From: Myxococcota bacterium
GTDB lineage: Bacteria > Myxococcota > XYA12-FULL-58-9 > JALHOP01
Assembly (NCBI GenBank): GCA_041288095.1
Contig: JBGGMJ010000190.1
Location: forward strand, 1 to 37,818
DNA: 37,818 bases
Reading direction: 5' to 3'
In this document: positions 2,593 to 26,242 of the stretch, in pieces
Position numbering within the stretch: position 1 is the first letter of the stretch
Layout: each line of letters starts with the position of its first letter
Position numbers and translations under genes: made by a program
The notes under the pieces: model-generated
Told to the model about the DNA's origin: nothing
The model's input: the letters and a program-made list of their open reading frames with translations, nothing else
The model's database searches: none

Positions 2593-2985
2593 TCAACCCG
2601 GCAAGAATTCGCTGTACGACACGCGCGCAAGCTCTCGTGGGAGCTCGGCGTGCCGCGTCACCGCTTCGCACAAGACGATGAGCTTTTGGCGCAGGCCCGG
2701 TCGCTTCTCGACGAGCTCGCCGATGCGCGTGGCGAGCGGGTGCGCGACGGCGGTCTTGCTGGTGGCGACCACCAGCACTGGGGCGTCGAGGTTCACCTTG
2801 CTCTTCGGGTCGCGCAGGTCGGCGAATGCCCAGCGCCTATCGGTGGCGACCTGACGCAGCGCCGCGTTGGTCTGCTCGGCGGACGCTCCGGTGAAACCCA
2901 AGATCGCCACAGCTGACATGCCGCCCAGATCTTCGATCAGGCGGGCGGTCGGCGAAACCAGGTCGAGCTCGATGAGCTGCGTCAT
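2593..2985 (-). CDS. Hypothetical 130-aa protein, possibly a degenerate stand-alone AAA+/P-loop domain
   Basis: ATG overlaps the upstream TGA (ATGA, 2982-2985). Element order AVAILGFTGAS / PVLVV / KLIVLCE / ELPRELAR parallels an AAA core. Confidence 0.7.
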   Translation of the reverse strand: MTQLIELDLVSPTARLIEDLGGMSAVAILGFTGASAEQTNAALRQVATDRRWAFADLRDPKSKVNLDAPVLVVATSKTAVAHPLATRIGELVEKRPGLRQKLIVLCEAVTRHAELPRELARVSYSEFLPG

Positions 2986-4577
2986 CCGCCTAGTTGGTAC
3001 ACGCGCGAGGCGGTCGGTGTCACCATGATCGCGACGAGCTGGCCCCGGCGCTGGACGATGCGGGCGCGGCCGGCGACGTAGCTCGAGCTGCCGACATGTT
3101 CCCAGCGGCCGGACAGGCTGTTCAGGTCGAGCTGGAAGACCTCTTTGCTGGGCTTACCGTCGGCGTCGAAGCCGCCGACATAAGTGATCTTCTCCTCGGA
3201 GAGAAACACCTGGCCCATGCCCACTGCCTTGGGTAGCGCGGGCAGCGTGTACCATTTCTCGCCCTGCGCGGTGTCGCACAGGTAGAGCTTGCCGTCGCGC
3301 GCGTTGCCCGGTCCGACGACGAAGACCCGGCGGTCGCTGGCCACCGAAGCGCCGGTCGTGTCCTCGGGCGGGGCGCTGCGCTCGATCCACTTCTGATGCT
3401 GGAGGCGGCGGAAGGCGCGCTCGACGATCGGCATGCGGAAGTCATCGCCCTTCTTCTCTTCGGCGAGCTTGGTCACACCGTCGGTCACGTAGAGGTTGCG
3501 ATCGACGATGGCGATGACCGGCCAAGCCGCGGGCTTCGCCATCTCGGTACCATAGCGCCACTGGTCGGGGGCGAAACCGGTGTGCGCGGCGTTGCTCAAG
3601 GGATACGTGAAGACGGCTGCGCTCGTCTTGCCGTCGGTGTAAGCGCCGCCGTACAGCCGCACCTCGTCGTCGATCACGGCCATGGACACGCCGTTCGGCG
3701 GGAGCTTGTCGGGCGTCGCGATCTCGCGGAAGCACGCGCGTCCGTTGACGCTGTCTTCGATCCACAGGCGCGTCTGGCCGCCTTCGGTGCGCTGGCTCGT
3801 GAGCAGGATGATGCGGTCACGCCACACCGCGACTGAGCACAAGTCGTCGGCGAGACCGGTCGGCGGGCCGGGCGCTTCAGTCGCCTTGAGGCGCGGCGCG
3901 CAGAGGTTACGGAGCAGGCTCGAGAGAGGCTGCGCGCCGGTGCTGCCGGCGCCGAAGTTGAACAAGCCGCCGAGAAACGACTTCTCCACGACCTGGGGCG
4001 TCTGCGCGGTGCGTAAGAGCAGATCGACGACGGACACAGCCTCCTTGGCGAAGGGGCCTTCCTCGACGACATCGCTGCCGCTCATCAGCGTGGCGTCGCG
4101 GTCTTTGACGTAGAGCGTGGCCGGCTGCGGGCGATTTCCGCTATAGAAGACAGAAAGCCACTTGTCGAGCGCCGCGCTGCGCATCTCTTCTTGCTTCCAG
4201 GAGGGGTAGCGCTGGGTGCCCATGTCCGAGAAGGCGGAGGTCGCCTCCCTCAGGTAATCCTGAGTCACGCGGTCGCGTGCGACCGGAGGGAAGACCCAGG
4301 TCTCGCTGGCTCGCGAGCCTCTGCCGACGACGATGGGAAAGAGGTTGTCACCGGCGGCGATCGCGAACACCGTATCGTTGTTGCGGCGACCCATGGCGAG
4401 CCGCTCGGCGGGGCCGGCCGAGACCGCGTCGCACAATGGTCCGATGATCTTCTTGCGGATGGGCTGCAAGAGCTCGTGCGCGTCGCCAGGGGCCGCGGAG
4501 CGCAGCGTATCGACGCTGCGGCGCAGGGACGGGGCTTCGAAGATCGGAAATGGATGAGCGTTGATCATTGTGGTCAC
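2982..4577 (-). CDS. Kelch-repeat beta-propeller protein with an unknown ~230-aa N-terminal domain
   Basis: Kelch-like blades VRLYGG..VFTY..W, LYVTDG, VFVVGPG..W..LP and ITYVGGF..VFQLD..W. GTG start overlaps the giant gene's TGA (GTGA, 4574-4577); alternative ATG at 4568. Confidence 0.8.
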   Translation of the reverse strand: MTTMINAHPFPIFEAPSLRRSVDTLRSAAPGDAHELLQPIRKKIIGPLCDAVSAGPAERLAMGRRNNDTVFAIAAGDNLFPIVVGRGSRASETWVFPPVARDRVTQDYLREATSAFSDMGTQRYPSWKQEEMRSAALDKWLSVFYSGNRPQPATLYVKDRDATLMSGSDVVEEGPFAKEAVSVVDLLLRTAQTPQVVEKSFLGGLFNFGAGSTGAQPLSSLLRNLCAPRLKATEAPGPPTGLADDLCSVAVWRDRIILLTSQRTEGGQTRLWIEDSVNGRACFREIATPDKLPPNGVSMAVIDDEVRLYGGAYTDGKTSAAVFTYPLSNAAHTGFAPDQWRYGTEMAKPAAWPVIAIVDRNLYVTDGVTKLAEEKKGDDFRMPIVERAFRRLQHQKWIERSAPPEDTTGASVASDRRVFVVGPGNARDGKLYLCDTAQGEKWYTLPALPKAVGMGQVFLSEEKITYVGGFDADGKPSKEVFQLDLNSLSGRWEHVGSSSYVAGRARIVQRRGQLVAIMVTPTASRVYQLGG

Positions 4578-7500
4578 TTACCCGGCGACTGGTTGGAGCG
4601 TTCCCAGCAGCGTAGGGCGACGTTCGCGAACTGGTGGACGAATTGCGCGAGGTTGCGCGCGTACAGCGAGTTGTCACCGAACTGCAGTACGCCTTTGCAC
4701 TCGGCGCCGATGCCCGCGGCGACGACGCTGTAACCCTTGGCGACTGCTTTCTGCAGAGTGCTGTGCGCGCCCGGCAGACCTTGGCCGTCGCCGAACGAAA
4801 CGATCTGACCGATGTCGGCTTCGATCATGTCGAGCAGCGCCGCGCCTTCGGCGATGCCGCGCTCGTCGTCGGTGGCGTCGCCTTCGCAGCGGATCTGATG
4901 GAGCAGGTGCGCCTTGAGCTCCTCGTTCCATTCCTGGTCGAAGCCGGCGTGTAGACGCACGCGATCCGAGTAGCCGATGACCGCGATCTTGATGTTTTGA
5001 TCGACCGCCTTGAGCGCATCGCCGTAGGCAATCAGCGCCTCGATGTTGGCGCGCGCCTTGTCGCTGTCGCCCATGCTGGACGACTCGTCGATGGCGAGCA
5101 CCACTTGTGCGCGGATCTCGTCGCTGCCCTTGTTCTTCTTGAAGATGTTCAAGACCGGCATCTTTTGCGCGAGGCCCGACACGTAGAGCGGGATCTGATT
5201 TTCGTCGAGCAGTGGACCGGAGGTCTGCTTGCGCAGGCGCTCCATGCCGCCGGCGCGTGGCAGCGACATGGACACGGCGTCGCGCAGGCGCGAAGCGGTG
5301 CCGTCGCGCTGATGCTTCGCCCAGAGCTCGGCGACTTTTGCCCGGCAAGCGCGGTAGCTCGCGGTCGACGTCGCCTTCTGTTGGGCGAGCTCGAGCTGCT
5401 TGCACACGCCGTCGTAAATGGCGCGCGTGGCGAGCTGATCGACGTCGCGCGCGTCGCCGGTCGAGCCCAAGACTTCGTTCGGCTCGTTGGTGGTCGGGAG
5501 TGCCGCCTCGAGGCGCAGCGATGACGCCATGGGGCCGGGCGAGCCAGCCGCCGACAACGGGGTGTCGAGGATGGCCGTGCCGATGCCCGCGCCCTTCGCT
5601 TCGACGCGTCCGCGGAAGCGGCCTTGGTTGCTGACGAGGCACTTCGTGAGGAGGCTCGCCGCGCCGTCGACCGCGCCGCGGAAGGAGGTCACGTGCATGC
5701 CGAAATCGCCGGCGACCGACTTCAGGTTCTTGGCCTCGCTGAAGCCGAGCATGGCGACGCCGACGCCGTTGGCACGGGCTTGATCGATGAGGGCGCGGAT
5801 CTCGCCGGCGTTGTTCACCTGCGCGTCCGTCATGATGAGGATGAGCTTGTCGTTCGACTTCGATGTGAACTGGCCGAGCGCGGTGTTGATCGCTGGGATG
5901 ATGATGGTGCCGCCGTTGGCGTTGCCGCACACACGGTAGGTCGCGTCCGCCGAGTCCGGCGTCAGCGGCTGGCTCATCGGTTTGTGAACCCAGACCTGGG
6001 CGCCTTCGATGTTGGTGCCGGGGGCATAGCTGCCGACGCCGATGTTGTCGCCGAGGCCCAAGACCGAGCAGCTGCCTTCGCTGCCCAGCAAGGCGCCCAT
6101 GACCATGGCCACGACCGCTTGCTCGTGACGAATGACCTCGCCCTGGGTCGAGCCGGATTGATCGACGACGACCACGACTTCGCAGGGATACTTGCGCAGC
6201 ACCGCGCGCAGGTTGTCGACGAGCCCCTGGTTCTCGGCGCAGAAGCGCTCGAACGCGTTTTTCGGGCGAGTCTCGTCGGGGGAGGCACCCACCAGGCGCT
6301 GGGCGGCGAGGGCGGCCTGCATCTCGTCGACCGTGTTCTGCACCGCGACGTCGCTGAGCTCGATGACCTCGATCTTGCCGCGCCCGTTTGTCGGACCATC
6401 GCCGACCTTGTTCTGCGGCGCGTTGATTTCTCCCGTCGGCGTCTTCGGGTCCGCGAGGGGGGCATTGCCTTCGGGCTCGTCCGCGGGTGGTGCATCGACC
6501 GCTTGGACACCGGTGCCGTCGCCGGCCCCGCCTGCGATGCCTTCCCCGCCGGAGCCGACACCAACGGTTCCGCCGGCGGTGCCCGTGTCGGACTTGCCGC
6601 CGAACAGGGCGGTCAGCCCGCTGCTCGGGGGGCTCGTCTGGTCCTGCGACGGTGCCCAGGTGGCCTGGTGCACGCGACCCATGTTCGTCGTTGCAGCCTG
6701 CGAGGCCTCCGACTTGGGCGCCGAGACCTCGAGGCCGCGAATGTTGCCGCTGAAGTACTTCGACGCGACACTCGCGACTTGCTTGGCGACCGCGCGCGCC
6801 TCGACGTCGAGCAAGCCGAGCATCGCTTCGACCACCGTTTGGGCCTGCTGCAGGGTCGCGACGCTGGGTTTGTTCTTGCCGAGCTTCGCCAAGTACTCGC
6901 GCAGCTTGAGAGCCATGCCCTCGAAGTGATTGCTCGATGCCGCGTCGCCGGCGTAGCGCTCGGCCTCGGCACGGAGCTCGCGGAGCTTGTCGGATGCCTT
7001 CTCGAGCTCGCTACCGAGGCCGGGCACGCTCTGGGCCTTCTGGACCGCGTCCATGAGCGACACGACCGCGGCCGCGACGCGTCCGGAGTAGGGGCCCTTG
7101 GTCATGGCGTTGGCGGCGCCGGCGGCATCGAGGAGCTCGTTGATCAGCGCTGCCGGCGAACCCGAGGTCGAGTCGAACGCGGCGAGCGCGCGCTTGGAAG
7201 CGCCGAGGCGGGCGATCGCCGCTTCGCGGTCCTTCAGATACGGCGCGACGCCGCTGGTGAAATGGTCGGCGACGCGAGCAGCGTCGTCGTTGAAGAGCTC
7301 ACCGTGGAGGGCGCGTAGATGCGATTCGATGTCGCGCCCGGCACTGGCGAGCGGACCCATCAGGTCGGCGACGAACGGCGCGACGCGGTCCGCCGCGACG
7401 TCGATGGCGGCGACCAGTTTGTGGCGTTCGAGCGACGACAGACAAACTTCGTCCACGGCCTCGGCGAGCTTGAGATAGTCGGCGAGCTGGCGGTCGGTCA

Positions 7501-10500
7501 CCTTCGTCTGGATGTCGAGGCGGCCGCCGAGCTCGGTGAACGCGGCGGCGACTTCGGCGAGACAACGCTCCGCGGTAGCGGTCGGCACGTATTGCGCGAG
7601 CTCGTCGCGGAACCCGGCCGCTTTGGTGGACAGCTCGCGGGCGCCCGCTGCTTCGTTGCCGGTAAGGCCCTCGCCGAGCTGGGCGAGACGCGCCGCCATG
7701 CTGTGGAACAAAGCGCGGCGCGAATACGCGGTGATCGCCGCCGAGTCGTTGCCGAGCGCGTCGATGATCTCGGCGAGCCTCGCCAGAGCCATGGCATCTT
7801 GGCCACCGGCGCTCGAGTCTCCCGACTTCGGCGCGAGCTCTTGAACCTCATCGAGCTGCGAACGCGCGCTCATGGCGAAGCGCGTGACCTCGCGCGCCAG
7901 GACGGTGCTGTCGAAGACGAGCTTCAGGTCGCGCCCGGCTTCGACGATCTTCGCGAGCTTGGCGGTCGCGGCCGCCGGGAAGAGCTCCGAAGGCTCGACC
8001 ACCGCCAGCACGCGGGTCAACGCTTCGAGGGCGGCGTCGAGGCTGGTCTGCAGGGCAGGGATGTCGGCGTCGCTGCCGCGGGCGAGCGCGTCGAGGGCAT
8101 CTTTCGCCGTGTTGAAGGTCGCGGAAGCCCGCTGCCAGGTGCTGCCCTGCGTCGCCTTCTCCAAGGCCGCGAGCAAGGTGCGTGCTTCGGTGTGCGATCG
8201 CGACAGGCGGTCGCCCGCGGCGACTGTCCGCTCGAGCACATCGTCCATGGCGCGGCGCACCTGGTCGCGCGTCGAATCGCTCTCGCGCCGGGTAACGTGC
8301 TGCGGCGGCTTCAGACCGACGGTCGACAAATCGAGGAGGCGTAGCTCGGTGTCACGCACCGTCATCACTTGGGCTGGCGCGGGTGAAACGATGCGCGACA
8401 GCGTGGTCGGCCCCATGCCCTTTTCACGGTCGCTCGCGAAGGCCTCGCCGTCGAGGGCGTTGCGGATGCGCTCACCGTGGCTACCGCCGCGACCTGTCCC
8501 CGAGGACAGCATCTCGAATATGGCGTCGACGCCGGCGTCCTGCAGGGTTACCGACTTGGCGGTCGTCTGGGCGCCGAGGAAGGCGCGCTTGAGCTCGATC
8601 ATCTCCTGCTCGAGCTGTTGTAGCTGCGCGTCCGGCTTAGCGGACTTGGCCGCCTCTTGATAGCGTTGCAGAGCCTGGTCGAGCGCCGTGATGCAGGCCC
8701 GAGCCGACTTGTCGCGCAGTGACTGCTGGCGGATGACCTGCGCGGCGCGCATGGTCGCTTCGATGACGTTGGCGAAGCCGTAGGCGACACCCGACTTCGC
8801 GGCGAACCTCGAGGAAAGATCGTCCGCGACTTGGGAGAACGCGGCGACTCGCATCAACAGGTTGCGCGCCGTGGCATCCGGACCCAAGCGCGCGATGGAA
8901 GCTTGCAGCGCGCCGGAGATCTCGACGTTTTCGCGGGCCGCCTGATGGAGCGCGGCGTAGCGCGACGAAGCGAGACCCAGCGTGTCGGAGCTCGCGAGCA
9001 CGTCTTCGATGGCGCCGCAGCTGGCGATATGGCTCTCGAGCGGGCTGATGTCCGGCAGGCCGGCCATGGTGTGGTTGACGCGCTCTTCGATCTTGGCGAG
9101 CGCTTCTTCGACGAGCTTGCAGGCTTCGTCACGGTTCGGCGCTTCGTGCTGGCGCATGTAGAGCGGCATGCCGCCGTCGTCGATCATGCGCCCGAAGCCG
9201 AAGCGGCGGCGCAACCCGTCGCCCCAGGCGCGTGCTTCACCTTCCGCGGTGCGCAAGGCGGTGCGCGCGTCTTCGATGGCCCGCGTCGTGGTCGTGTCCG
9301 CGGCATCTCCGAGCTGAGTCGCGAGGAGTTGGAGATCCTTGCCGAGGGCAATGGCCGCCATCGCGTTGCGGCTGGCGCTGCGCTCGACGGCGCTCTCCAC
9401 GCGTTGCCGATAGGCGGTCTCGTATTCGGCGGCCTTCTTCTTCTCGAGCTCGGCCAAGACCTTGCGCTTGGTCTCGGCGATGCGCGACCCGCTCTCTTGT
9501 TCGAGGCGGCCCAGAGCGTCTTCGTATCTGGCTTGAGCAGCGCTCGACCGCGCCTGCTGAGTCGGCTGCGCAAGGCCGGTGTCACCCAAGGCCAAGTCGT
9601 AATCGGCAAAGAACTTGTCGACCGGCGGGGCCTTGCGATCCATCGTCTCTTGCGCGAGCTCGGCGAACAGTTCGGCGCGCGCTGCTTCGACCTTGTCGCG
9701 CTCTTCGGCTTTAGCTTGCTGCGTTGCCTCGGCCTCGAGCTCGGCCTTGCTGGCCCGGTGGGGTGCGTCGATTTTGAGCGGGCCCGACGGCAGCTGGAGG
9801 AACTCGGCGCGCGAGAGATCGCTCGCGTTCTTCTTCACGCGGCCGAGCGTCGCCAACATCTCCTTGGCGGTGCGGAGGGTCTTCACCTGGCCGAGGTGAC
9901 CCAGGAGCTCGTCGACCACTTCACGGGTGCCACGCTGAGCGTCGGCGACGGCGCGGCGGAGATCAGCGGACTGTTCGGCGATGCGGATGCCTTCGAGCGC
10001 CGAGCCGGCGGCGCGCAGTGCCGACAGCAAGCCGGAGACTTCGTCGCGGGTTGCGCCGCGGTCGTCGTGTGCCTCGCGCAAAGCATCGAGCGCGTTGTGC
10101 AGCTCGGCGAGGTGGCCGCGCAGCTGGTGGTGGTTCTTGAACAGCGGCGTGCCGGTGACCCAGTCCCAGCGCTCGATGACCTTCTCGTAGCGCTCCTGCA
10201 GGACGTTGTCCGTGCCACCGCCGTGCTGGCGGTAGGCCTCGAGGGCGTCCTCGACGGAGTCGCGGACCTGTCGGATCGTGCCTTCGGCGGCGCTTGCTTC
10301 GAAGCGCTCGGTGACCGACGCGAGCTCGCGGCGGGCGGCATCCGCGGCTTCGGAACCGAAACCGGCGCAGAGCGCGAAGGCGTCAGCGTAGCGGCTGATG
10401 ATCTCGCAGCGGTGCTCGAGGTCCCAGAGGCGCGCGCCGCGCATGAACTCGAGCACGTCGCCTTCGAGCGGCTTGCTCGCAAAGCCGCTCTCGTCGATGG

Positions 10501-13500
10501 CCTTGATCAGGCGCTCCGCCGCGTTCTTGGTCTTGACGGTGATCTTGGTAACGCCGGGCTCGCTGTCGAGGAGCTTGCTGCACGCGCGCTCGATCTCGGC
10601 GGGCAACAGACCGCCGGTGGGGAGGCGCGCCACGAGCATGCGTAGGTCGGCCTCGGTGCCGCCATCGATCAAGCGGGTCACGGCTTCCTTGGTCGATTTG
10701 AGGACCGCGGCGGTGAGCACGGCGGCGACGCCGTCGTAGTCTTTCTTGAGTGTTGCGAGGTGCGGGTTCGCGACGATGTCGACCGCGTTCGAGCTCTGCG
10801 CGGTGAGAATGCCCGACGTGCCGTAGAGCTGCGCCAAGCACGTTGCGACAGCGGCGGCGACGCCGTCGTGCACGGGCAAGCGCTCGACCGGAGCGAGGAC
10901 GTGGCGCACGATGGCGCTGGTGACGATATCTTGCAGGTCGGCGTCGGAGTTCGCCGCGGCGCGTGCGACGTCGCTCGCGAGGAACAGTAGACGTTGTCCG
11001 TCAAAGCGGATGAGCTGCCGGTCCTGCAGGCTGACGCCGGTGATGCTCGCGTCGGCGGCGGCGATCAGGTCGACGAAAGCAGTAGCCATGGCGGAGCCGC
11101 CGGGCACGCCGGCGAGGATGTGGCTGGTCAAGGCGATGAGATCGTGGCGCTGCGTGACGGGCTCGGCGCGGACGCGGGTACAGGCCGCCGCGAGCTCCTG
11201 CGGGAGCGGCGGGTCGCCGGTGGAGGTCTGGAGCACCAAGCGCAAGCGCTTCTGCTGGATCTCGAGCTTGCCGTCGCGAATGCGTTCGACGTTGTCGGTC
11301 CCGGCGACCTCCGACAGGCGCATGAGCAAGTCGCGCGGCAGGCGCGCCGCGTTGCGGATGAGCAGGATCGAGGCTTCGCGCTGGGCTCGCCAAACGAGAC
11401 CTTCGTAGCGCTCGAAGCGACCGTCGTCGTTCTGCACCAAGCCGCCGAAGAGTGACGACTCGGAGAGCTGCTCGTTGCCTTCGATCTCGATGATCTCCGA
11501 CGCCGACAGGCGCGCCATGCTCTGGATGGCGGCGCGGCCGACGAAGGGATCGCCATGGATCTGCAGCGACTCGGCGAACTGCGCCGCCGCGAACTCCTTG
11601 CTCTGGATCTCGTCGAGGCCTTCGACGCGGGGCAAGATGGCTTCGTGCTGCGGCACGCCCTTGCGAATGCCGCGGCTGTCGCGGGGCACCGACCATTCGC
11701 CGAAGCGGACGAAATGTTGAGTCGCCGAGACGTCGGTGCCGGCGGGTGCCGCGATGCCTTCGCAGATGAAGCGTTTGGTGAGGTGCGAGAAGAGCGCGCG
11801 GTCGCTCTCGTTGTCGAAGCGCTCGCCGTAGACGTCGACGATGAGGCGGTGCAGGGTCTCGACTTCGTCGGTGACCGCGCCTTGCGCCGTGAGGTGCTTC
11901 AAGCGGCGTGCGACGGCTTCGGCGTCGCGGTTCAGGAACGAGCCGATGGCGAGGGCAGAGGCAAACTCGCCCTTACGCAAGAGCTCGTTCATGCAGATGT
12001 GGAACCGCGCCAACAGGCGCGCCGAGTCGACGGAGATCTGCGTGCGGTGATGGATGTTCTCGAGCAGCTCGGAGGCGGCGCGGGACAAGACCTCTTGGGT
12101 CGGCGCCTGCACCCGTGTCGACAGCAGCGGAGTCAGCAGGCGGTTTTCGAGCGCCGGCGAGAACTCGTGCGGCGAGCCCGGCTTGCGCAGCATGATCATG
12201 CGGAAGTTGGGATTGGCCTTGATGGTACGGGCCGACCGCGGCAAGTCGATCGATTGCCGGCCGTCACCGAGCGAGTTCAGGCGCTCGAGCTTGGAGCTGG
12301 GGATGGAGCCGCAGCCGCGCAGGACGAGGAGGTGGCCGTTCTGAACCGCCTGGGCGATCTCCTGCATCTCGGGCGTGAAGCCGCCCTTCACCGTCGGATC
12401 GTCGGTGAGGACCAGCTTCTCGATGAGCTGCTCGATGTCGGTGTTCGGAGTGAGGGTGACCACCACGAGGCGCTTGCCGAGCAGACGCGCGTACTCGCGT
12501 AGGGTCTCCATCGACTCGCCGTTGGGATCGTCGGTGAGCGACATCGGCCGGCCGCGGCCCATGACGTCGGCGTCGGCGATGCACGAGAGGTTTTGCACGC
12601 GCGCCGGCGTGAGCGGGAAGCGCTCGTTCGACGGACGCCACGGGGTCTCGGCGCCGAGCGGCACTCGGGTGTTGCCGAAGTAGACGGCGTCGCCTTCTTG
12701 GCGCGGCACGAGTAGGTCGACGGCTTCGCTCGCGGCGTGGCCAAAGGTGCGGGTGATCCGCGCCAGTGCCTCACCCTCGAGGTCACGCGGCATCTTGGAG
12801 AGGAGGGTGAGCTCGGCGGCGCGCATGGCCGACCCGGCGACGCCCGTGGTGCGTCGCTTCTCGATGTAGAGCTCGAGGAACGAGGAGAGGACGCGCGGCG
12901 TGAGCGGTGAAGCGCCCGCGCCCGCTTGCAGGGTGCGCAGATCGTCGAAGAAGGAGACCAGGCGCGCCACTTCCTCCGCCGAGGTCAGGCGATCGCCGAC
13001 GACGATGTTGGCGTTCGCGACCTTCATTGCCTCGACCGACAACGAGCCGGCCGGGACCATGCCGGCGACGCGCGCCGCCGACTGCGGATCCTTGGCTTTG
13101 ACGAGCAGCGCCGAGATGAGCTCGCGCAGCGGCGCGAACTTGTCGCCTTTGAACTGCCACAAAGCGAGTGCGAGGGCGCGCTCTTGTTCCGGCGTGAAGG
13201 CGAAGATTGGCGTCGTGGCGAGCGCGAGCACGAGCGTCTTCTGGAAGTGAGCCTCGTCGCGCTTGCCGGCGCCGACCAGCCCCTTCAAGAACGTCATCAT
13301 GCCCTTGGGCGGATCGACGTCGATGCAGGCGAGCTTCAGGGCATCGCCGAAGGCGTTTCCGGGCCTGCAGATCTGCAGCAAGGCGTCGCGTGCGCTATTG
13401 CGGTCAGCCGCTTCGAAGCTCTGCGGCGAGCGCAGGAGCTCACGGGGCTCCCCGTCGCAGTAGTCGCGCTGAGCGATCTCGTTGAGCTCGTCGAAGCCGC

Positions 13501-16500
13501 GTGGCTCGCGAATGCCGACGATCACCAAGCGGCTGGCTTCGGGATCGGAGAAGCCGTCGGCGCGGATGTCGTCGCCGTTGGTGGTGAAGATCTGGCGGAA
13601 CTCGGGATGCCAGCGATCTTCGGGCGGGCCGCCGCGGCGGCGCAGGGTGCGCGACGGACGCGACGGGATCTTGATCTGCGAGCCTTCGGTGACCGGGTTG
13701 AGCGACTCGCGCGTCTGATTGGGGAGAGTCAGGAGCTCGTCGCCGCAGTACCAGGCGCCGATCTGCGCCGCGATATCGAGCGGCGACTCTTGGAAGCGCA
13801 CCTCGCCCTCGGGCGTGAGCACCGTCGTGCCGAAGATGTTCTCCTCGGACATGTCGGCGTGGTACGCCTGCTCGAGCAGCGGTTGGTTCAAGTGGTGTGC
13901 GAGATAGCGGACGAGCATCGTCTTGCCCGAGCCGGTGATGCCGACGATGGCGAGCGGCTGATCGAGCTCGAGGGCGAGCAGCGCATCCTCGAGGAAGTCG
14001 AGCTGCGCCCCGATGGGCTCGCCGATGCGATCCTTGCTGGGCACCATGGCTTGGTGCACCGGGTTATCGAGCTTGCGGACGGGATAACGCGCGACGCCGA
14101 CCTTGAGGTACTCGACGCCGTCGACGGTGATACGCTCGACGCCATTGGGTCGCGTGAGCTCGTGGACGTCGGAGCCGAAGTGGCGCTTGATGAGTGTCTC
14201 GAAGACGCGCTGCGCGGTGTCCGGCGCCTGGAGCAGGCCGCGAACGAGCCGCATGGTCTCTCGACCCAGCACACGGCGCTGCTCGTTCGGATCGGTGATG
14301 CCGTCACGCTTGATCAGGTGCTCGGCGCGTCGCGCCGCTTTGAGCATGTCGCGCTCGGTGCAGGTGAGCGGCCCGAACGTCTTGCCGAGCTCGCCACGAC
14401 GCTCGTTCCACACCGCTTCGAGGTCGACGAAGAACTTGGCGATGGTGAGGACCGGGTCGAACGACTTGTCGGAGAAAAAGCCACCGGCGCTGGTGCGCCA
14501 CTGGCGTGCTAGGCCGCACTGCGATGCGACGATGTCGGCGCGCTCGTTGACCGGCTTTTCGCGCACCATGACGCGGAACATGCAGTCGTCGATGACGGGC
14601 GGCTGTTCCTTGCGGCCGCGGGTGCCGAGTGGATTCTCCGCGAAGTAGAGAATCGAAGCGCCGATGGAGCGAGGCAACCCGGTGTCGGGGTCGATGACGG
14701 CGCGGCGGTGATCGAGCAGGGACTTCATGCTCATCATCGCTTCGGTGCTGAGGTTGCGCTCGTCGCCGATCCACGCGCCTTCGGTCTCGAGCGTCGCCTT
14801 GATCAGCGGCCCGCTGACCATCTGGAACTGCACGCCCTGCTCGGTCTTCACTGGGCTCAAACCGCCGTAGAGGTCCGACGCTTCGGTGGCCGCCGAGAAA
14901 TTGTAACGCTCCGGCGTCCTGTCCGCGATGGCGGACCAGAGTATGCCGAGCACGGTTTTGCCGGCGGCGGCCTTACCAACGGTGAGCACTGGACGCTCGA
15001 GCTTGTAGGCGAGGGCCAGCGGCAGCAGGGTGTCGGCCATGCTGGGTGTGAGGTCGAAGCCGGTGGTGGCGACGCGTTGGCTCACGTCGGCTTGGCTTAA
15101 GCCCATGACCCGCATCCACACCGGCGGTGTGCCGTCGGCGAACCGCGGAAGCTTGGCGAGCGCCGGGCTCTTGGCCTCGTCGAAGAGCAAGCGAGCCGCG
15201 TGCGCTACCGCTTGGTCAGCTGGCACGTGCGCGGCAAGGAGCGTCGCGGCGCCGGCGAAGTCGCGGGAGCGTTGCAGCTTGAGCAAACCGATCTGGGGGG
15301 CTTCGGCGTGGATCTCGGTGGCGACGCGCTCGATGAGGGCGCGCAGCTCGGGCGAGGCAGCGGCCGGGATGAGGCTGAAAGCGTCGCTCAAGCTCGGTGA
15401 GTCGAAGCGGATCTCGGTTAGCAAGGCGCGCTCGCGCGCCGGGGGTGTGCGCCGCGTCCGGTCCGCTCCAGCGGTCGCCGAGAAGTAGATGCGACTCTCG
15501 GGGTGGACCGGAACGGTCACGGCCTGACCATCTTTCATGATGGTCAGCGAGGTCTTCTCGACGAGCCGTATGAGGGCCTCCTGGCGCTCGAGCGACAGGT
15601 GGTCGATGTGGTCGAAATAGAGGATCTTGCCGTTCAGCAACGCATCGGTGATGACGCCGGGCACGAACTCGACGCTGCCGTCCTTCTTGAAGACTGGGCG
15701 CTCGATGAGGCTCTGCGGATCGACGCCCGGGTGGCAGGTGACGGTGACGAGGTCGCGCCCGAAGCGGCGAGCGAGCTCGTTCACGAGGCTCGTGGAACCC
15801 GCCTGACCGGGAGCGGTGAACATGACCGGCTCGCCGGCGAGATGCGCGGCTTCGGCCTGCGCCATGGCTTCGACCTGCGCGCCGATGGGCGTCCAGCCGC
15901 CGTCTGGGGTCGCCGCCGTGAGGGGCTGCGGGGCGGGATGACCGTCGTTCGTGATCACCGCGCGGAGCGCCGCCTGTGAGCCTTCGCTCGCGAGGCGCGT
16001 ACCGTAGATGCCCCAGATTGCGTTCGAGATGTCCTGCGGTTGCGGCGTCGGCAGGTTCTTCAGACGCCGCGCGACGCGCTCGAGCATCGGGTAAGCGAGC
16101 GGAAACCCGCGGCCGAAGTCGATCTGCTGCTCGGGCTGGTCGCTCGTTTGCCCAGCCTTGATGGTCTCGTGTTTGTCGGCGAGCTTGCTCGCCAGTGCAC
16201 GGCTGATGCCGACGCGCTCGCTGAGCAGGCGTACGTGATCGTCGCGCGTATAAGCGCTCACCTCGGTCAGAGCGCAGACGGAGGTCAGCTCCGCGCTGCA
16301 ACGCGCGCGGTTGCTGGTCATCAGTACGAGGCGAAAATCGGGGTGCACCGGCACGATCTTGCCGGAGACTGGGTGGTGGAACTCCGCCACGCCCTTGGCG
16401 AGACCGGAGAGGATCGCGAGCACGTCTTTTTCCGCCTGCTCGAGACACTCGGCGACGAATACACCGCCGTTCATGATGCACTCGGTGAGCGGCCCGTGGT

Positions 16501-17047
16501 GGACACGCAAGCGTCCCTGGGCGTCAGGGCGCAGGGCGCCGGCGAGCGAGTCGAGCGAGGTAATGCGCGAGATGCGTTGGTGACGGTAGGGAGTGCCGGC
16601 GACCTCGAAGAACCAGCGGGCCGTGGCGCCGCCATCGACGCCTTCGGGCAGCGAGACCAGCGCCGGGACGCCCGACTTGAGGACGTCCGCGAGTGAGCGG
16701 ATGACCTCTTCCTGGGGCCGCAGGATAGTCAGCTCGGCGGCTTTGTCCGACGGAACCGGCAGCGTCAACGTGCCGACACGTAGCTCGCCGTTGCCGTGCT
16801 CGACCTTCTGGGCCGCTTTCAGCGCGCTCTCGAGGCCCTCTTGGGTGACTCGGGTCTCACGTGCCTCGTTGACGGCACGATGGGTGCGGTCAAGGACGTC
16901 AGCGACGACGTTTTGCACCTTCTGTTGGCGTGCGCCCTCGGGTTGGTCCGGGGCCTTCTGCTGGTCGCGCTCCGGGGTCTGGGCGTTGTGATCGCCTGCC
17001 GTCGGGCGCTGCCATGGTCGAAATCCTGCTCCAGCGGTATCGGTCAT
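4574..17047 (-). CDS. Giant midasin (Rea1/Mdn1)-like protein: six AAA+ modules, helical linker, two vWA/MIDAS domains (4157 aa)
   Basis: Uninterrupted 12.5-kb ORF. Walker A GKAAAGKT (14954-14977) and GITGSGKT (13919-13942); Walker B WIGDE and WYCGDE. Four further degenerate modules, including VHPDFRL, VHPESRI, ANPNFRM and SPALENR signatures. MIDAS motifs DQSGS (6149-6163) and DESSS (5075-5089). Confidence 0.88.
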   Translation of the reverse strand: MTDTAGAGFRPWQRPTAGDHNAQTPERDQQKAPDQPEGARQQKVQNVVADVLDRTHRAVNEARETRVTQEGLESALKAAQKVEHGNGELRVGTLTLPVPSDKAAELTILRPQEEVIRSLADVLKSGVPALVSLPEGVDGGATARWFFEVAGTPYRHQRISRITSLDSLAGALRPDAQGRLRVHHGPLTECIMNGGVFVAECLEQAEKDVLAILSGLAKGVAEFHHPVSGKIVPVHPDFRLVLMTSNRARCSAELTSVCALTEVSAYTRDDHVRLLSERVGISRALASKLADKHETIKAGQTSDQPEQQIDFGRGFPLAYPMLERVARRLKNLPTPQPQDISNAIWGIYGTRLASEGSQAALRAVITNDGHPAPQPLTAATPDGGWTPIGAQVEAMAQAEAAHLAGEPVMFTAPGQAGSTSLVNELARRFGRDLVTVTCHPGVDPQSLIERPVFKKDGSVEFVPGVITDALLNGKILYFDHIDHLSLERQEALIRLVEKTSLTIMKDGQAVTVPVHPESRIYFSATAGADRTRRTPPARERALLTEIRFDSPSLSDAFSLIPAAASPELRALIERVATEIHAEAPQIGLLKLQRSRDFAGAATLLAAHVPADQAVAHAARLLFDEAKSPALAKLPRFADGTPPVWMRVMGLSQADVSQRVATTGFDLTPSMADTLLPLALAYKLERPVLTVGKAAAGKTVLGILWSAIADRTPERYNFSAATEASDLYGGLSPVKTEQGVQFQMVSGPLIKATLETEGAWIGDERNLSTEAMMSMKSLLDHRRAVIDPDTGLPRSIGASILYFAENPLGTRGRKEQPPVIDDCMFRVMVREKPVNERADIVASQCGLARQWRTSAGGFFSDKSFDPVLTIAKFFVDLEAVWNERRGELGKTFGPLTCTERDMLKAARRAEHLIKRDGITDPNEQRRVLGRETMRLVRGLLQAPDTAQRVFETLIKRHFGSDVHELTRPNGVERITVDGVEYLKVGVARYPVRKLDNPVHQAMVPSKDRIGEPIGAQLDFLEDALLALELDQPLAIVGITGSGKTMLVRYLAHHLNQPLLEQAYHADMSEENIFGTTVLTPEGEVRFQESPLDIAAQIGAWYCGDELLTLPNQTRESLNPVTEGSQIKIPSRPSRTLRRRGGPPEDRWHPEFRQIFTTNGDDIRADGFSDPEASRLVIVGIREPRGFDELNEIAQRDYCDGEPRELLRSPQSFEAADRNSARDALLQICRPGNAFGDALKLACIDVDPPKGMMTFLKGLVGAGKRDEAHFQKTLVLALATTPIFAFTPEQERALALALWQFKGDKFAPLRELISALLVKAKDPQSAARVAGMVPAGSLSVEAMKVANANIVVGDRLTSAEEVARLVSFFDDLRTLQAGAGASPLTPRVLSSFLELYIEKRRTTGVAGSAMRAAELTLLSKMPRDLEGEALARITRTFGHAASEAVDLLVPRQEGDAVYFGNTRVPLGAETPWRPSNERFPLTPARVQNLSCIADADVMGRGRPMSLTDDPNGESMETLREYARLLGKRLVVVTLTPNTDIEQLIEKLVLTDDPTVKGGFTPEMQEIAQAVQNGHLLVLRGCGSIPSSKLERLNSLGDGRQSIDLPRSARTIKANPNFRMIMLRKPGSPHEFSPALENRLLTPLLSTRVQAPTQEVLSRAASELLENIHHRTQISVDSARLLARFHICMNELLRKGEFASALAIGSFLNRDAEAVARRLKHLTAQGAVTDEVETLHRLIVDVYGERFDNESDRALFSHLTKRFICEGIAAPAGTDVSATQHFVRFGEWSVPRDSRGIRKGVPQHEAILPRVEGLDEIQSKEFAAAQFAESLQIHGDPFVGRAAIQSMARLSASEIIEIEGNEQLSESSLFGGLVQNDDGRFERYEGLVWRAQREASILLIRNAARLPRDLLMRLSEVAGTDNVERIRDGKLEIQQKRLRLVLQTSTGDPPLPQELAAACTRVRAEPVTQRHDLIALTSHILAGVPGGSAMATAFVDLIAAADASITGVSLQDRQLIRFDGQRLLFLASDVARAAANSDADLQDIVTSAIVRHVLAPVERLPVHDGVAAAVATCLAQLYGTSGILTAQSSNAVDIVANPHLATLKKDYDGVAAVLTAAVLKSTKEAVTRLIDGGTEADLRMLVARLPTGGLLPAEIERACSKLLDSEPGVTKITVKTKNAAERLIKAIDESGFASKPLEGDVLEFMRGARLWDLEHRCEIISRYADAFALCAGFGSEAADAARRELASVTERFEASAAEGTIRQVRDSVEDALEAYRQHGGGTDNVLQERYEKVIERWDWVTGTPLFKNHHQLRGHLAELHNALDALREAHDDRGATRDEVSGLLSALRAAGSALEGIRIAEQSADLRRAVADAQRGTREVVDELLGHLGQVKTLRTAKEMLATLGRVKKNASDLSRAEFLQLPSGPLKIDAPHRASKAELEAEATQQAKAEERDKVEAARAELFAELAQETMDRKAPPVDKFFADYDLALGDTGLAQPTQQARSSAAQARYEDALGRLEQESGSRIAETKRKVLAELEKKKAAEYETAYRQRVESAVERSASRNAMAAIALGKDLQLLATQLGDAADTTTTRAIEDARTALRTAEGEARAWGDGLRRRFGFGRMIDDGGMPLYMRQHEAPNRDEACKLVEEALAKIEERVNHTMAGLPDISPLESHIASCGAIEDVLASSDTLGLASSRYAALHQAARENVEISGALQASIARLGPDATARNLLMRVAAFSQVADDLSSRFAAKSGVAYGFANVIEATMRAAQVIRQQSLRDKSARACITALDQALQRYQEAAKSAKPDAQLQQLEQEMIELKRAFLGAQTTAKSVTLQDAGVDAIFEMLSSGTGRGGSHGERIRNALDGEAFASDREKGMGPTTLSRIVSPAPAQVMTVRDTELRLLDLSTVGLKPPQHVTRRESDSTRDQVRRAMDDVLERTVAAGDRLSRSHTEARTLLAALEKATQGSTWQRASATFNTAKDALDALARGSDADIPALQTSLDAALEALTRVLAVVEPSELFPAAATAKLAKIVEAGRDLKLVFDSTVLAREVTRFAMSARSQLDEVQELAPKSGDSSAGGQDAMALARLAEIIDALGNDSAAITAYSRRALFHSMAARLAQLGEGLTGNEAAGARELSTKAAGFRDELAQYVPTATAERCLAEVAAAFTELGGRLDIQTKVTDRQLADYLKLAEAVDEVCLSSLERHKLVAAIDVAADRVAPFVADLMGPLASAGRDIESHLRALHGELFNDDAARVADHFTSGVAPYLKDREAAIARLGASKRALAAFDSTSGSPAALINELLDAAGAANAMTKGPYSGRVAAAVVSLMDAVQKAQSVPGLGSELEKASDKLRELRAEAERYAGDAASSNHFEGMALKLREYLAKLGKNKPSVATLQQAQTVVEAMLGLLDVEARAVAKQVASVASKYFSGNIRGLEVSAPKSEASQAATTNMGRVHQATWAPSQDQTSPPSSGLTALFGGKSDTGTAGGTVGVGSGGEGIAGGAGDGTGVQAVDAPPADEPEGNAPLADPKTPTGEINAPQNKVGDGPTNGRGKIEVIELSDVAVQNTVDEMQAALAAQRLVGASPDETRPKNAFERFCAENQGLVDNLRAVLRKYPCEVVVVVDQSGSTQGEVIRHEQAVVAMVMGALLGSEGSCSVLGLGDNIGVGSYAPGTNIEGAQVWVHKPMSQPLTPDSADATYRVCGNANGGTIIIPAINTALGQFTSKSNDKLILIMTDAQVNNAGEIRALIDQARANGVGVAMLGFSEAKNLKSVAGDFGMHVTSFRGAVDGAASLLTKCLVSNQGRFRGRVEAKGAGIGTAILDTPLSAAGSPGPMASSLRLEAALPTTNEPNEVLGSTGDARDVDQLATRAIYDGVCKQLELAQQKATSTASYRACRAKVAELWAKHQRDGTASRLRDAVSMSLPRAGGMERLRKQTSGPLLDENQIPLYVSGLAQKMPVLNIFKKNKGSDEIRAQVVLAIDESSSMGDSDKARANIEALIAYGDALKAVDQNIKIAVIGYSDRVRLHAGFDQEWNEELKAHLLHQIRCEGDATDDERGIAEGAALLDMIEADIGQIVSFGDGQGLPGAHSTLQKAVAKGYSVVAAGIGAECKGVLQFGDNSLYARNLAQFVHQFANVALRCWERSNQSPGK

Positions 17048-17268
17048 GGCTCGTGTTCGTCGTGGGTGATGATGTCCGATTGGCTGCGTGGGAGCGCCGC
17101 CTAAGCATCGGAGTTATCGTTCAGTCCGCCCCAGGGTTGCGCCGTGCGACATGACAGACCCCCCGCGATCGGGTGTCAGAGTGGCACCGGGAAGATCGGG
17201 GTCAGAAGCACCCCGACGACGTGTCGGCCCGATAACAGGAATCGAGACCAACGAAATTGGGGTTAGTC

Positions 17269-17922: not shown

Positions 17923-17964
17923 GCCTAGCCAAAGGTCCCGGATCGGCGTAAACGACCGGCACTC

Positions 17965-26168: not shown

Positions 26169-26242
26169 CGGGGTGTAGCTCAGCCTGGTAGAGCGCTTGG
26201 TTCGGGACCAAGAGGTCGCATGTTCGAATCCTGTCACCCCGA
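26169..26242 (+). tRNA. tRNA-Pro (anticodon CGG)
   Basis: Acceptor stem CGGGGTG/CACCCCG, D arm GCTC/GAGC, anticodon arm CTTGG-TTCGGGA-CCAAG, T loop TTCGAAT, discriminator A. Followed by CCT, so CCA is not fully encoded. Confidence 0.96.

What the first reader, a model, noticed from the sequence alone, without database searches (positions are those of the whole stretch)
4574..17047. Bacterial protein with the full midasin (Rea1/Mdn1) architecture
Seen: six tandem AAA-like modules (about 16740-15960, 15890-15180, 15060-14180, 14020-12720, 12620-11760, 11640-10830), a ~1350-aa Ala/Leu/Glu-rich helical linker, a Gly/Pro/acidic tether (~6750-6380) and C-terminal MIDAS vWA domains. Modules carry midasin/MoxR-clade signatures (GPL/GVI..A..G, HP(D/E)FR, SPALENR). 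Four are preceded by a recurring beta motif: LRVGTLTLP, LKVGVARYP, VYFGNTRVP, VRFGEWSVP. The lead-in to the last vWA (SGPLLDENQIPLYVS...NIFKK...RAQVVLAIDESSSM) resembles, from memory, the midasin pre-MIDAS segment. Known: AAA6-linker-acidic tether-MIDAS in one chain defines the eukaryotic 60S biogenesis factor, whereas bacteria usually encode separate MoxR and vWA proteins. Inference: a single-chain bacterial pulling motor, either midasin-related or a convergent MoxR-vWA fusion. Genes are intron-free and coupled, and flanked by bacterial genes, arguing against contamination. I cannot confirm novelty.
Basis: partly seen in the sequence, partly recalled or inferred. Interest (0 to 1): 0.95.

Follow-up and report, generated by a model that had tools for sequence, protein, structure and literature searches.

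The report
Bacterial six-AAA, linker and MIDAS giant
A rare 4157-residue bacterial protein strings six midasin-like ATPase modules, a long linker and two metal-dependent binding domains into one chain, a layout otherwise known from the eukaryotic ribosome-assembly motor midasin, but whether the two share a six-module ancestor could not be settled.

Summary
The ORF at 4574-17047 (-) is a real gene of 4157 aa under purifying selection. Six separate AAA_5 modules and two vWA domains with complete MIDAS motifs are confirmed. A 1310-aa Ala/Leu-rich linker and a variable Gly/Pro/Thr/Ser tether match nothing known. Only modules 3 and 4 keep Walker A and Walker B motifs. Only modules 4 and 5 keep the arginine finger, and those are the fingers that would serve sites 3 and 4. 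This fits a ring with two live ATP sites. The family is tiny: 8 full-length representatives among 1.84 billion proteins. It always sits beside a Kelch-propeller gene and a small gene. The nearest relatives by sequence are eukaryotic midasins, then NorQ/CbbQ. "Full midasin architecture" is overstated. There is no detectable linker or N-domain similarity, no D/E-rich region and no H2 inserts. It has two vWA domains rather than one and two live sites rather than four or more. Module trees cannot separate common descent from independent concatenation (three AU tests, p 0.16-0.47). No fold of the ring or linker was obtained. Best reading: a single-chain MoxR/midasin-like remodelling ATPase, a new variant of a known kind.

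The parts
4574..17047 (-). Giant ORF, 4157 aa (P0001): N-region, six AAA_5 modules, linker, tether, two vWA domains
   Evidence: dN/dS against the 87%-identical copy in L001 is 0.12 overall.
16796..17047 (-). N-terminal region, aa 1-84; conserved GF(R/K)PWQ and THR motifs
   Evidence: No similarity to the midasin N-terminal domain (hhalign probability 0.09%).
15923..16795 (-). Module M1 (aa 85-375), degenerate ATP site
   Evidence: AAA_5 E 7e-3. hhalign 99% to midasin AAA1. No GK[ST] in 0 of 11 members. No Arg finger in 5 of 6.
15128..15922 (-). Module M2 (aa 376-640), degenerate ATP site (GQ[AS]GxT, D-H)
   Evidence: AAA_5 E 2e-10. Walker A Lys present in 0 of 11 and Walker B Glu in 0 of 11.
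14078..15127 (-). Module M3 (aa 641-990), intact Walker A (GxxxxGKT, aa 691-698) and Walker B (DE 762-763); no Arg finger of its own
   Evidence: (11 of 11). Its lid matches AAA_lid_7 in relatives.
12698..14077 (-). Module M4 (aa 991-1450), intact Walker A (aa 1036-1043), Walker B (DE 1103-1104) and Arg finger R1173; about 130-150 extra, variable residues in the lid region
   Evidence: AAA_5 E 8e-15..
11708..12697 (-). Module M5 (aa 1451-1780), dead ATP site but conserved Arg finger R1636; the most conserved part of the protein
   Evidence: dN/dS 0.026.
10778..11707 (-). Module M6 (aa 1781-2090), degenerate ATP site, no Arg finger
   Evidence: AAA_5 E 6e-3. hhalign 70-96% to midasin modules..
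6848..10777 (-). Linker, aa 2091-3400, Ala/Leu/Glu/Arg-rich, no known family, no internal repeats
   Evidence: No Pfam hit. hhalign to the midasin linker at most 1.1%. No self-repeats. No PDB, Atlas or plasmid hit. dN/dS 0.146.
6248..6847 (-). Tether region, aa 3401-3600; low-complexity Gly/Ala/Pro/Thr/Ser core at aa 3432-3556, variable in length and sequence among relatives
   Evidence: dN/dS 0.283.
5408..6247 (-). vWA domain 1 (aa about 3624-3775) with a complete MIDAS motif
   Evidence: VWA E 2e-6. DxSxS/T/D in 11 of 11. hhalign 96% to the midasin MIDAS domain.
4577..5407 (-). Lead-in (aa 3881-3975) and vWA domain 2 (aa about 3982-4088 and beyond) with a complete MIDAS motif
   Evidence: VWA_2 E 7e-6. 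MIDAS motif in 11 of 11. hhalign 97% to the midasin MIDAS domain.
2982..4577 (-). Co-conserved partner gene, 531 aa: N-terminal alpha/beta domain (about aa 20-190), disordered stretch with invariant P194 and E198, Kelch-type beta-propeller (about aa 240-531). The ORF overlaps the giant gene's stop by 4 nt.
2593..2985 (-). Co-located small gene, 130 aa, no known family; overlaps the Kelch gene's stop by 4 nt
   Evidence: A clear orthologue lies in the same place in L001. A weak one lies in the same place in L002 (E 1e-3).

Best explanation
The gene encodes a single-chain AAA+ mechanoenzyme of the MoxR/CbbQ/midasin (AAA_5) clade, in which six modules that other bacteria supply as six identical subunits are concatenated.

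Shown. All six modules are present, and only the M3 and M4 ATP sites are intact. The only conserved arginine fingers are those of M4 and M5. These are the fingers that reach into the sites of M3 and M4 if neighbouring modules pack as in an AAA+ ring. Two MIDAS-competent vWA domains hang from the ring on a 1310-aa linker and a variable flexible tether. The gene is conserved together with a Kelch-propeller gene and a small gene.

Inferred. The six modules close into an asymmetric ring with two adjacent live sites and four structural modules. The MIDAS sites grip an acidic residue of a target protein. That target is most likely the co-encoded Kelch protein, acting as adaptor or substrate, or whatever its propeller holds. 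ATP turnover at M3/M4 moves the linker or the docked MIDAS domain so that the target is pulled out of, or remodelled within, a complex. This is the way midasin strips Ytm1 and Rsa4 from pre-60S particles and the way NorQ/NorD or CbbQ/CbbO remodel their clients.

On ancestry I take no firm side. The AAA and vWA domains are homologous to those of midasin, but the six-module chain may be a sister of, or independent from, the eukaryotic one.
For: - Six AAA_5 modules.
- Walker A Lys and Walker B DE only in M3 and M4, in 11 of 11 full-length members, and in 0 of 11 for the other four modules.
- Arg-finger column: R in 6 of 6 for M4 and 6 of 6 for M5, against 1/6, 1/6, 0/6 and 0/6 for M1, M2, M3 and M6. 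The same alignment reproduces midasin's published lack of a finger in AAA1 and of Walker B in AAA6 (the midasin facts come from passages of PMC6920918).
- MIDAS motifs intact in both vWA domains in 11 of 11.
- Purifying selection along the whole chain, and strongest in the dead module M5.
- Closest relatives outside the family are midasins. Bit scores fall from 316 for the weakest full-length family member to 164 for the best midasin. The PDB profile search gives E 7e-60. NorQ and CbbQ follow at 2e-13 to 1e-10.
- The Kelch gene lies next to the giant gene in 3 of 3 loci with DNA. A fourth pair shares a contig length.
- Kelch fold by Foldseek, E 4e-8, TM 0.45-0.53 on the target.
Against: Ring closure and linker helicity are therefore inferred. 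Binding of MIDAS to the Kelch partner rests on gene neighbourhood and analogy alone. The partner's N-domain is about 170 aa of mixed alpha/beta, not an obvious ubiquitin-like domain as in the midasin substrates. Two live sites out of six is fewer than in any characterised relative, so the protein could be a slow switch rather than a motor. No client complex is encoded nearby. The flanks are carB and an M20 peptidase.
Confidence: 0.55

Rival explanations
1. The family is a true relative of midasin by descent. A single-chain six-AAA, linker and MIDAS protein existed before the split. It was either inherited by or transferred to the eukaryotic stem from a Myxococcota-like lineage, or transferred anciently from a eukaryote to bacteria. 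The linker, inserts and D/E region diverged beyond recognition.
For: Same order of parts. Midasins are the top non-family hits everywhere. M3, M5 and M6 score higher against midasin modules than against six NorQ/CbbQ-type singles; for example M3 against AAA5 averages 42 bits versus at most 5. Each bacterial module is more like midasin modules than like its own sister modules. AAA_lid_7 (the midasin lid) matches in 4 of 7 members and CbbQ_C in 0 of 7. In the tree, the odd modules M1, M3 and M5 fall on the midasin side. Clades M4+AAA4 and 'all even modules' are not rejected (p 0.156 and 0.163).
Against: There is no diagonal in the 6x6 module comparison. M2 and M4 are as close to NorQ/CbbQ as to midasin (51 and 40 bits against at most 48 and 34) and group with the singles in the tree. 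Monophyly of all 36 midasin modules, which would mean independent duplication, is not rejected (p 0.47). Linker, N-domain and tether show no profile similarity. H2 inserts are absent. AAA_lid_7 also matches 1 of 6 plasmid singles. Summed scores favour multi-module targets by construction.
Confidence: 0.3
2. It is the core of a conflict or defence system of the MoxR-vWA ternary kind. The AAA-vWA giant would control the assembly or release of the Kelch protein and the small protein as sensor or effector.
For: [quoted passage not shown] The distribution is sporadic and narrow, in Myxococcota/Bdellovibrionota-labelled MAGs. In L002 a ClpB-like double-AAA gene with PADLOC matches (PDC-M37B 2.8e-28, DolB 4.9e-18) is inserted between the giant and the Kelch gene.
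Against: PADLOC gives no hit for the giant, the Kelch protein or the small protein (0 of 3). P0001 has no bpMoxR match at E up to 1. The propeller is a separate Kelch gene, not a four-blade propeller fused after the vWA. No recognisable effector domain is present. Selection is purifying throughout, without a hypervariable part other than the tether. The context is housekeeping and is syntenic between the window and L001.
Confidence: 0.15
3. It is a cofactor- or metal-insertion chaperone like NorQ/NorD, CbbQ/CbbO or CoxD/CoxE, merely fused into one chain.
For: NorQ and CbbQ are the nearest single-AAA relatives with solved structures and on plasmids, where each sits beside a separate vWA gene. 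One relative's vWA1 matches VWA_CoxE (6.8e-9).
Against: No candidate client enzyme (NOR, Rubisco, CO dehydrogenase) lies in the window or in L001/L002 flanks. These chaperones need neither a 1300-aa linker nor two MIDAS domains. No CbbQ_C lid is found (0 of 7).
Confidence: 0.08
4. It is an artefact: eukaryotic contamination, a chimeric assembly or a non-coding open frame in GC-rich DNA.
For: GC-rich DNA yields many long spurious ORFs. The best named hits are eukaryotic.
Against: dN/dS is 0.12 over 4143 aligned codons against an independent MAG with the same neighbours. Eight full-length representatives of 3880-4336 aa exist. GC is uniform. Flanking genes are bacterial and there is a tRNA. Identity to midasin is only 23-24% over 9-10% of the query.
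Confidence: 0.01

Closest known systems
Midasin (Rea1 / Mdn1), the eukaryotic pre-60S remodelling AAA+ ATPase
   Same: One chain with a short N-terminal region, six AAA_5-type modules, a linker of over 1000 residues C-terminal to the ring, a flexible low-complexity stretch and a C-terminal MIDAS-bearing vWA domain. It is the best sequence match outside the family. Some modules are catalytically dead in both.
   Different: Here only 2 sites are intact; midasin has Walker A in all six, and AAA2-5 are needed (PMC6920918 passages). There are no H2 helical inserts in modules 2, 4 and 6 (61-64 residues between Walker A and B against 115-166). Linker and N-domain have no profile similarity. The tether has 10% D+E over about 125 aa, against 30-47% over about 600 aa in midasin. 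There are two vWA domains. The partner is a Kelch protein, not a UBL-WD40 protein. The host is bacterial and has no nucleolar 60S pathway.
NorQ/NorD, CbbQ/CbbO and related CbbQ/NirQ/NorQ/GvpN-family AAA+ proteins with vWA partners
   Same: Same AAA_5 clade, with HPxFR and Arg-finger motifs aligned. M2 and M4 score 51 and 40 bits against a NorQ-type protein. They work with a MIDAS-bearing vWA protein (abstract of PMC13036017).
   Different: Those are about 270-350-aa single modules that form homo-hexamers, with the vWA on a separate protein and a CbbQ_C lid. Here six diverged modules, a linker and two vWA domains are one polypeptide, and CbbQ_C is not detected.
MoxR-vWA-beta-propeller ternary conflict systems (Kaur et al. 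2020, PMC7159879)
   Same: The combination of a MoxR-clade ATPase, a vWA domain and a beta-propeller protein in one gene cluster, in bacteria with complex lifestyles (passages).
   Different: There the MoxR is a single module (Pfam bpMoxR), the propeller has about four blades and is fused to the vWA, and a third, variable membrane-linked component is present. None of this is seen here.
Dynein heavy chain
   Same: Six different AAA modules in one chain, only some of them catalytic, and a long helical lever. This is from established knowledge and passages of PMC3495828.
   Different: No dynein chain was matched in the PDB at E up to 0.01 by sequence or profile. In dynein the linker is N-terminal to the ring and there is no vWA (recalled).

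Membership tests
Midasin (Rea1/Mdn1) | Six AAA+ modules of the AAA_5 type in a single polypeptide | tested here: met
   Pfam finds 6 stretches, and each piece matches alone. hhalign gives 70-100% to midasin AAA1-6.
Midasin (Rea1/Mdn1) | One-to-one correspondence of module positions (M1=AAA1 ... M6=AAA6) | tested here: inconclusive
   No diagonal in phmmer or hhalign matrices. The tree has weak deep nodes (SH-aLRT 81-87). AU tests reject nothing: all midasin modules as one clade p 0.47, M4+AAA4 p 0.156, all even modules p 0.163.
Midasin (Rea1/Mdn1) | Alpha-helical H2 insertions in AAA2, AAA4 and AAA6 | tested here: not met
   Walker A Lys to Walker B Asp is a median of 61-64 residues in all six bacterial modules (6 members each). 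In midasin AAA2, AAA4 and AAA6 it is 166, 115 and 150.
Midasin (Rea1/Mdn1) | Nucleotide sites intact in most modules (AAA2-AAA5 required) | tested here: not met
   Walker A and B are intact only in M3 and M4, in 11 of 11 members. The midasin requirement is taken from passages of PMC6920918.
Midasin (Rea1/Mdn1) | Linker with stem, middle and top domains homologous to Rea1 | tested here: not met
   hhalign of three linker thirds and the whole linker against three midasin linker thirds and the whole gives probability of at most 1.1% in 16 of 16 comparisons. Fold comparison was not possible because the job failed.
Midasin (Rea1/Mdn1) | Long D/E-rich region before the MIDAS domain | tested here: not met
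   Midasin P0009 has 30-47% D+E over about 600 aa. Here D+E is 10% over the 125-aa tether. hhalign gives 0.06%.
Midasin (Rea1/Mdn1) | C-terminal vWA domain with a complete MIDAS motif | tested here: met
   DxSxS, T and D are present in both vWA domains in 11 of 11. hhalign gives 96-97% to the midasin MIDAS domain. There are two domains here rather than one.
Midasin (Rea1/Mdn1) | Rea1-specific MIDAS elements and binding of UBL domains of WD40 assembly factors | not testable with these tools
   The lead-in alone shows no similarity (0.17%). The partner is an N-domain plus Kelch protein.
Midasin (Rea1/Mdn1) | N-terminal domain homologous to the Rea1 NTD | tested here: not met
   hhalign probability 0.09%.
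CbbQ/NirQ/NorQ/GvpN-type MoxR-clade ATPases with vWA partner | AAA_5 core with aligned Walker, HPxFR and Arg-finger motifs | tested here: met
   PDB profile hits to NorQ at 2e-13 and CbbQ at 1e-12.
CbbQ/NirQ/NorQ/GvpN-type MoxR-clade ATPases with vWA partner | Single-module subunit forming a homo-hexamer, with the vWA on a separate protein | tested here: not met
   Six modules and two vWA domains lie in one ORF. The plasmid singles have separate vWA genes.
CbbQ/NirQ/NorQ/GvpN-type MoxR-clade ATPases with vWA partner | CbbQ_C lid domain | tested here: not met
   CbbQ_C is found in 0 of 7 family members at E up to 0.01, and in 5 of 6 plasmid singles.
MoxR-vWA-beta-propeller ternary system (PMC7159879) | bpMoxR-type ATPase; propeller fused C-terminal to the vWA; variable third component | tested here: not met
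   No bpMoxR match for P0001 at E up to 1. The Kelch propeller is a separate gene. PADLOC gives 0 of 3.
VWA8 (animal AAA-vWA protein) | Several AAA_5 modules followed by one vWA in about 1900 aa | not tested
   No VWA8 sequence was in hand. The six hits of about 1900-2050 aa that I checked out of the 150 listed were midasin fragments. The architecture of VWA8 is recalled, with a mention in PMC10743472.

The most novel reading that the evidence does not exclude
This small family, found in Myxococcota/Bdellovibrionota-labelled genomes, is a surviving bacterial branch of the lineage that gave rise to midasin, and through it to dynein. On this reading the single-chain hexa-AAA ring with a C-terminal lever and a MIDAS hand is a bacterial invention. 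It predates, or was donated to, the eukaryotic stem, rather than arising 'early in eukaryotic evolution' from single-module MoxR as currently written (PMC3495828).
Probability: 0.15. Interest if true: 0.92.

Novelty: new variant of a known kind. Interest (0 to 1): 0.7.

Why it matters
Concatenated, functionally specialised AAA+ rings such as dynein and midasin are treated as eukaryotic inventions derived from homo-hexameric bacterial MoxR-type ATPases. This protein shows that bacteria also built a single-chain six-module ring with a long lever and MIDAS domains. It has a very clean division of labour: two live sites with exactly matching arginine fingers, and four conserved dead modules.

Whether it is a relative or a convergent copy, it gives a bacterial, intron-free and smaller model for studying how asymmetric AAA+ rings couple two ATP sites to a distant binding domain. 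It also gives the question of where midasin and dynein came from a concrete sequence family to test. Its co-conserved Kelch partner points to an unknown bacterial remodelling pathway.

Tried and rejected
- Per-module register test by phmmer and hhalign: no diagonal.
- Module tree and three AU tests: nothing was rejected, so there is no verdict on ancestry.
- Linker: all of the following gave nothing.
  - Pfam.
  - hhalign against the midasin linker.
  - Self-repeats.
  - PDB profile search.
  - ESM Atlas.
  - tblastn against plasmids.
- M3 alone against 5.8 billion proteins of 192-613 aa: no hit at E up to 1e-3 among 8000 scored candidates.
- ESM Atlas on the Kelch partner's N-domain: nothing.
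- PADLOC on the three operon proteins: nothing.
- Idea that the partner mimics the UBL plus propeller design of the midasin substrates. The propeller is confirmed as Kelch. The N-domain model (pLDDT 70-90 over about aa 20-190) is about 170 aa of mixed alpha/beta and could not be searched on its own, so the idea stays open.
There is no result.
- The listing of cluster members for source names of the relatives: the database was switched off.
- Upstream 918-bp gap: no Pfam hit above cut-off in its three ORFs and no promoter-like site.
- Literature: seven full-text searches found no paper describing a bacterial six-AAA, linker and vWA chain.
  - Garbarino & Gibbons 2002 is not held.
  - Iyer et al. 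2004 could not be read.
  - The part of PMC7203096 that mentions midasin lies beyond the held text.
  - Prior description there, or in supplements, is therefore not excluded.
Full report
**What is there**

The window holds one uninterrupted ORF on the minus strand, 4574-17047, of 4157 codons. GC content is even across the window at 0.64-0.69. The neighbours are ordinary bacterial genes. They are:
- a divergent carB upstream;
- an M20 peptidase and a glutathione peroxidase downstream;
- a LOG-family gene and a GT22 glycosyltransferase;
- an amidohydrolase;
- a Ser/Thr kinase-cyclase fusion;
- an NHL/DUF4215 protein.

There is also a tRNA-Pro. An independent genome bin (L001, labelled Bdellovibrionales) carries an 87%-identical copy between the same carB and M20 genes. 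Over 4143 aligned codons dN/dS is 0.12. It is 0.03-0.15 in every domain and 0.28 in the tether. This is a real, selected bacterial gene, not contamination and not a chance open frame.

**Domain anatomy**

Pfam AAA_5 matches in six stretches. Profiles of the six modules, built from 11 full-length family members, match profiles of midasin AAA1-6 with 70-100% probability in all 36 pairs.

Two vWA domains follow at about aa 3624-3775 and 3982-4088. Both keep DxSxS, Thr and Asp of the MIDAS motif in 11 of 11 members.

Between the ring and the vWA pair lie two segments:
- A 1310-residue segment (A 18%, L 11%, E 8%, P 2.7%). It has no Pfam match and no internal repeats. It finds nothing in the PDB profile search, the ESM Atlas or plasmids.
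- A low-complexity stretch at aa 3432-3556 (G 19%, A 13%, P 10%, T 10%, D+E 10%, K+R 6%). It varies in length and sequence among relatives.

The four "beta motifs" are present as quoted, and their glycines are invariant in 7 of 7 members. That the linker is helical was not tested.

**The ATP sites**

Walker A Lys and Walker B Asp-Glu are intact only in M3 and M4, in 11 of 11 members. M1, M2, M5 and M6 lack them in 11 of 11.

I aligned 78 modules: six family members, six midasins and six single-module plasmid ATPases. In that alignment the arginine-finger column holds Arg as follows:

| Module | Members with Arg |
|---|---|
| M4 | 6 of 6 |
| M5 | 6 of 6 |
| M1 | 1 of 6 |
| M2 | 1 of 6 |
| M3 | 0 of 6 |
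| M6 | 0 of 6 |

In AAA+ rings the finger of one module completes the site of the preceding one. The fingers that survive are therefore exactly those needed by the two surviving sites. The same alignment recovers two published midasin facts: AAA1 lacks the finger and AAA6 lacks Walker B (PMC6920918 passages). That speaks for the alignment.

This pattern is the best evidence available here that neighbouring modules pack as in a ring and that the machine runs on two adjacent sites. M5, although dead, is the most conserved part of the protein (dN/dS 0.026).

**How rare, and who are the relatives**

A word-indexed search of 5.8 billion proteins gave six full-length relatives of 4102-4245 aa and then two midasins. 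An exhaustive HMMER scan of 1.84 billion representatives with aa 376-1575 gave 1112 hits at E up to 1e-3.
- Thirteen rows scored 205 to 2217 bits and belong to the family. Eight of them are full-length at 3880-4336 aa.
- After a drop to 164 bits come proteins of midasin length.
- Of the listed hits from P0019 onward, 79 are 4400-5600 aa.
- Six shorter hits that I checked all carry midasin lid domains.

In the PDB, midasin leads (E 1e-35 by sequence, 7e-60 by profile). NorQ and CbbQ follow at 2e-13 to 1e-10. No dynein or RavA chain appears at E up to 0.01.

In one genome per species of GTDB, only two loci were found.

**Is it a midasin?**

Features that fit:
- the order of parts;
- the AAA and vWA homology;
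- AAA_lid_7 matches in 4 of 7 members, against none for CbbQ_C;
- M3, M5 and M6 scoring higher against midasin modules than against six NorQ/CbbQ-type singles.

Features tested and not met:
- Linker similarity: at most 1.1% probability in 16 of 16 profile comparisons.
- N-terminal domain similarity: 0.09%.
- A D/E-rich region: midasin has 30-47% D+E over about 600 aa, against 10% over 125 aa here.
- The H2 helical inserts of AAA2, AAA4 and AAA6: 115-166 residues between the Walker motifs in midasin, against 61-64 in every bacterial module.
- Six Walker A motifs.
- A single MIDAS domain.

HPxFR and the Arg-finger motif are shared with NorQ. I therefore do not file the protein as a midasin. It works like one in outline.

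**Ancestry**

No diagonal appears in module-by-module comparisons. In an IQ-TREE of 78 modules by 291 columns, every module type is monophyletic (support 95-100), but deep nodes are weak (81-87). The tree splits into two groups:
- M2, M4 and M6 with the single-module proteins;
- M1, M3 and M5 with the midasin modules.

Three AU tests rejected nothing:

| Constraint | p |
|---|---|
| All midasin modules as one clade | 0.47 |
| M4 with AAA4 | 0.156 |
| All even modules of both as one clade | 0.163 |

Common descent of the six-module chain and independent concatenation both remain open. Summed scores favour multi-module targets, so "midasin is the top hit" is not by itself evidence of shared architecture.

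**Partners**

The next gene (2982-4577, 531 aa) overlaps the giant's stop by 4 nt. The gene after it (2593-2985, 130 aa) overlaps in the same way. The 531-aa protein has 34% identity (E 7e-56) to a gene near the giant in L002, and its orthologue follows the giant in L001. Its seven homologues are as rare as the giant, and two share contig lengths with giants.

The model (mean pLDDT 60) has three parts:
- a fairly confident N-terminal alpha/beta domain at about aa 20-190;
- a disordered stretch holding invariant P194 and E198;
- a propeller that Foldseek matches to Kelch domains at E 4e-8, TM about 0.5 on the target.

The small gene is clearly conserved in L001 and weakly conserved in L002. L002 has an extra ClpB-like gene in between.

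**Mechanism proposed**

The protein is a single-chain, asymmetric AAA+ ring with two live sites at the M3/M4 and M4/M5 interfaces. It carries two MIDAS hands on a long lever and a flexible tether. The hands bind an acidic residue of a client, possibly the Kelch protein or its cargo, and ATP turnover remodels or extracts that client.

The parts list, the site pattern, the conservation and the operon are shown. Ring closure, MIDAS-partner binding and force generation are inferred from what is known of midasin and of NorQ/NorD-type systems.

**What could not be done**

The fold of the ring and linker was not obtained. Source names of relatives could not be looked up. Metagenome neighbourhoods were closed.

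Seven literature searches found no description of such a bacterial protein. One paper states that the six-module chain arose early in eukaryotic evolution (PMC3495828 passages). Key older papers could not be read, so prior mention is not excluded.

Noticed in passing
window 11708-12697 (-), module M5: The catalytically dead module M5 is the most conserved part of the giant protein (97% amino-acid identity and dN/dS 0.026 against L001, versus 0.12 overall). This suggests an important non-catalytic role beyond supplying the Arg finger.
   Followed up: partly
L002 12157-14814 (+): In the distant relative's locus, an 885-aa ClpB-like double-AAA gene (AAA_2, ClpB_D2-small) sits between the giant gene and the Kelch gene. 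It has PADLOC matches to PDC-M37B and DolB. It is absent from the window and from L001.
   Followed up: partly
window 17048-17964: There is a 918-bp gap between the giant gene's start and the divergent carB. In L001 the equivalent distance is about 230 bp, from the carB ORF end at 9770 to the codon aligned with the window's start. The three ORFs in the window's gap have no Pfam match above cut-off, and no promoter-like site was found.
   Followed up: partly
window 12698-14077 (-), about aa 1195-1440 of the giant: M4 carries about 130-150 extra residues after its Arg finger (lid region) compared with the other modules. The length ranges from 131 to 278 residues after the finger among six relatives, and part of the segment is poorly conserved.
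   Followed up: partly
hhalign matrices: Bacterial modules resemble each other less than they resemble midasin modules. Same-parity pairs (M1-M5, M2-M4, M2-M6) score higher on average than cross-parity pairs. This hints at an alternating A-B-A-B-A-B origin like the odd/even pattern seen among midasin modules.
   Followed up: partly
window 27644-29926 (+): A 760-aa protein fuses a Ser/Thr protein kinase domain to an adenylate/guanylate cyclase catalytic domain.
   Followed up: no
window 32021-33085 (+) and 34016-37711 (-): A 354-aa protein has collagen triple-helix repeats. A 1231-aa protein has teneurin-type NHL repeats and DUF4215 cysteine-rich repeats. Domain families of this kind are typical of myxobacteria-like genomes (recalled).
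   Followed up: no
window 26169-26244 (+): A single tRNA-Pro (anticodon CGG) was found by both ARAGORN and Rfam.
   Followed up: yes
L005-L008 (plasmid loci): The nearest plasmid-borne single-module relatives of M4 lie in a recurring cluster of an AAA ATPase, a DUF3150 protein and a VWA protein. The cluster lies next to RecT/lambda-exonuclease genes in 2 of the 4 such loci fetched.
   Followed up: no
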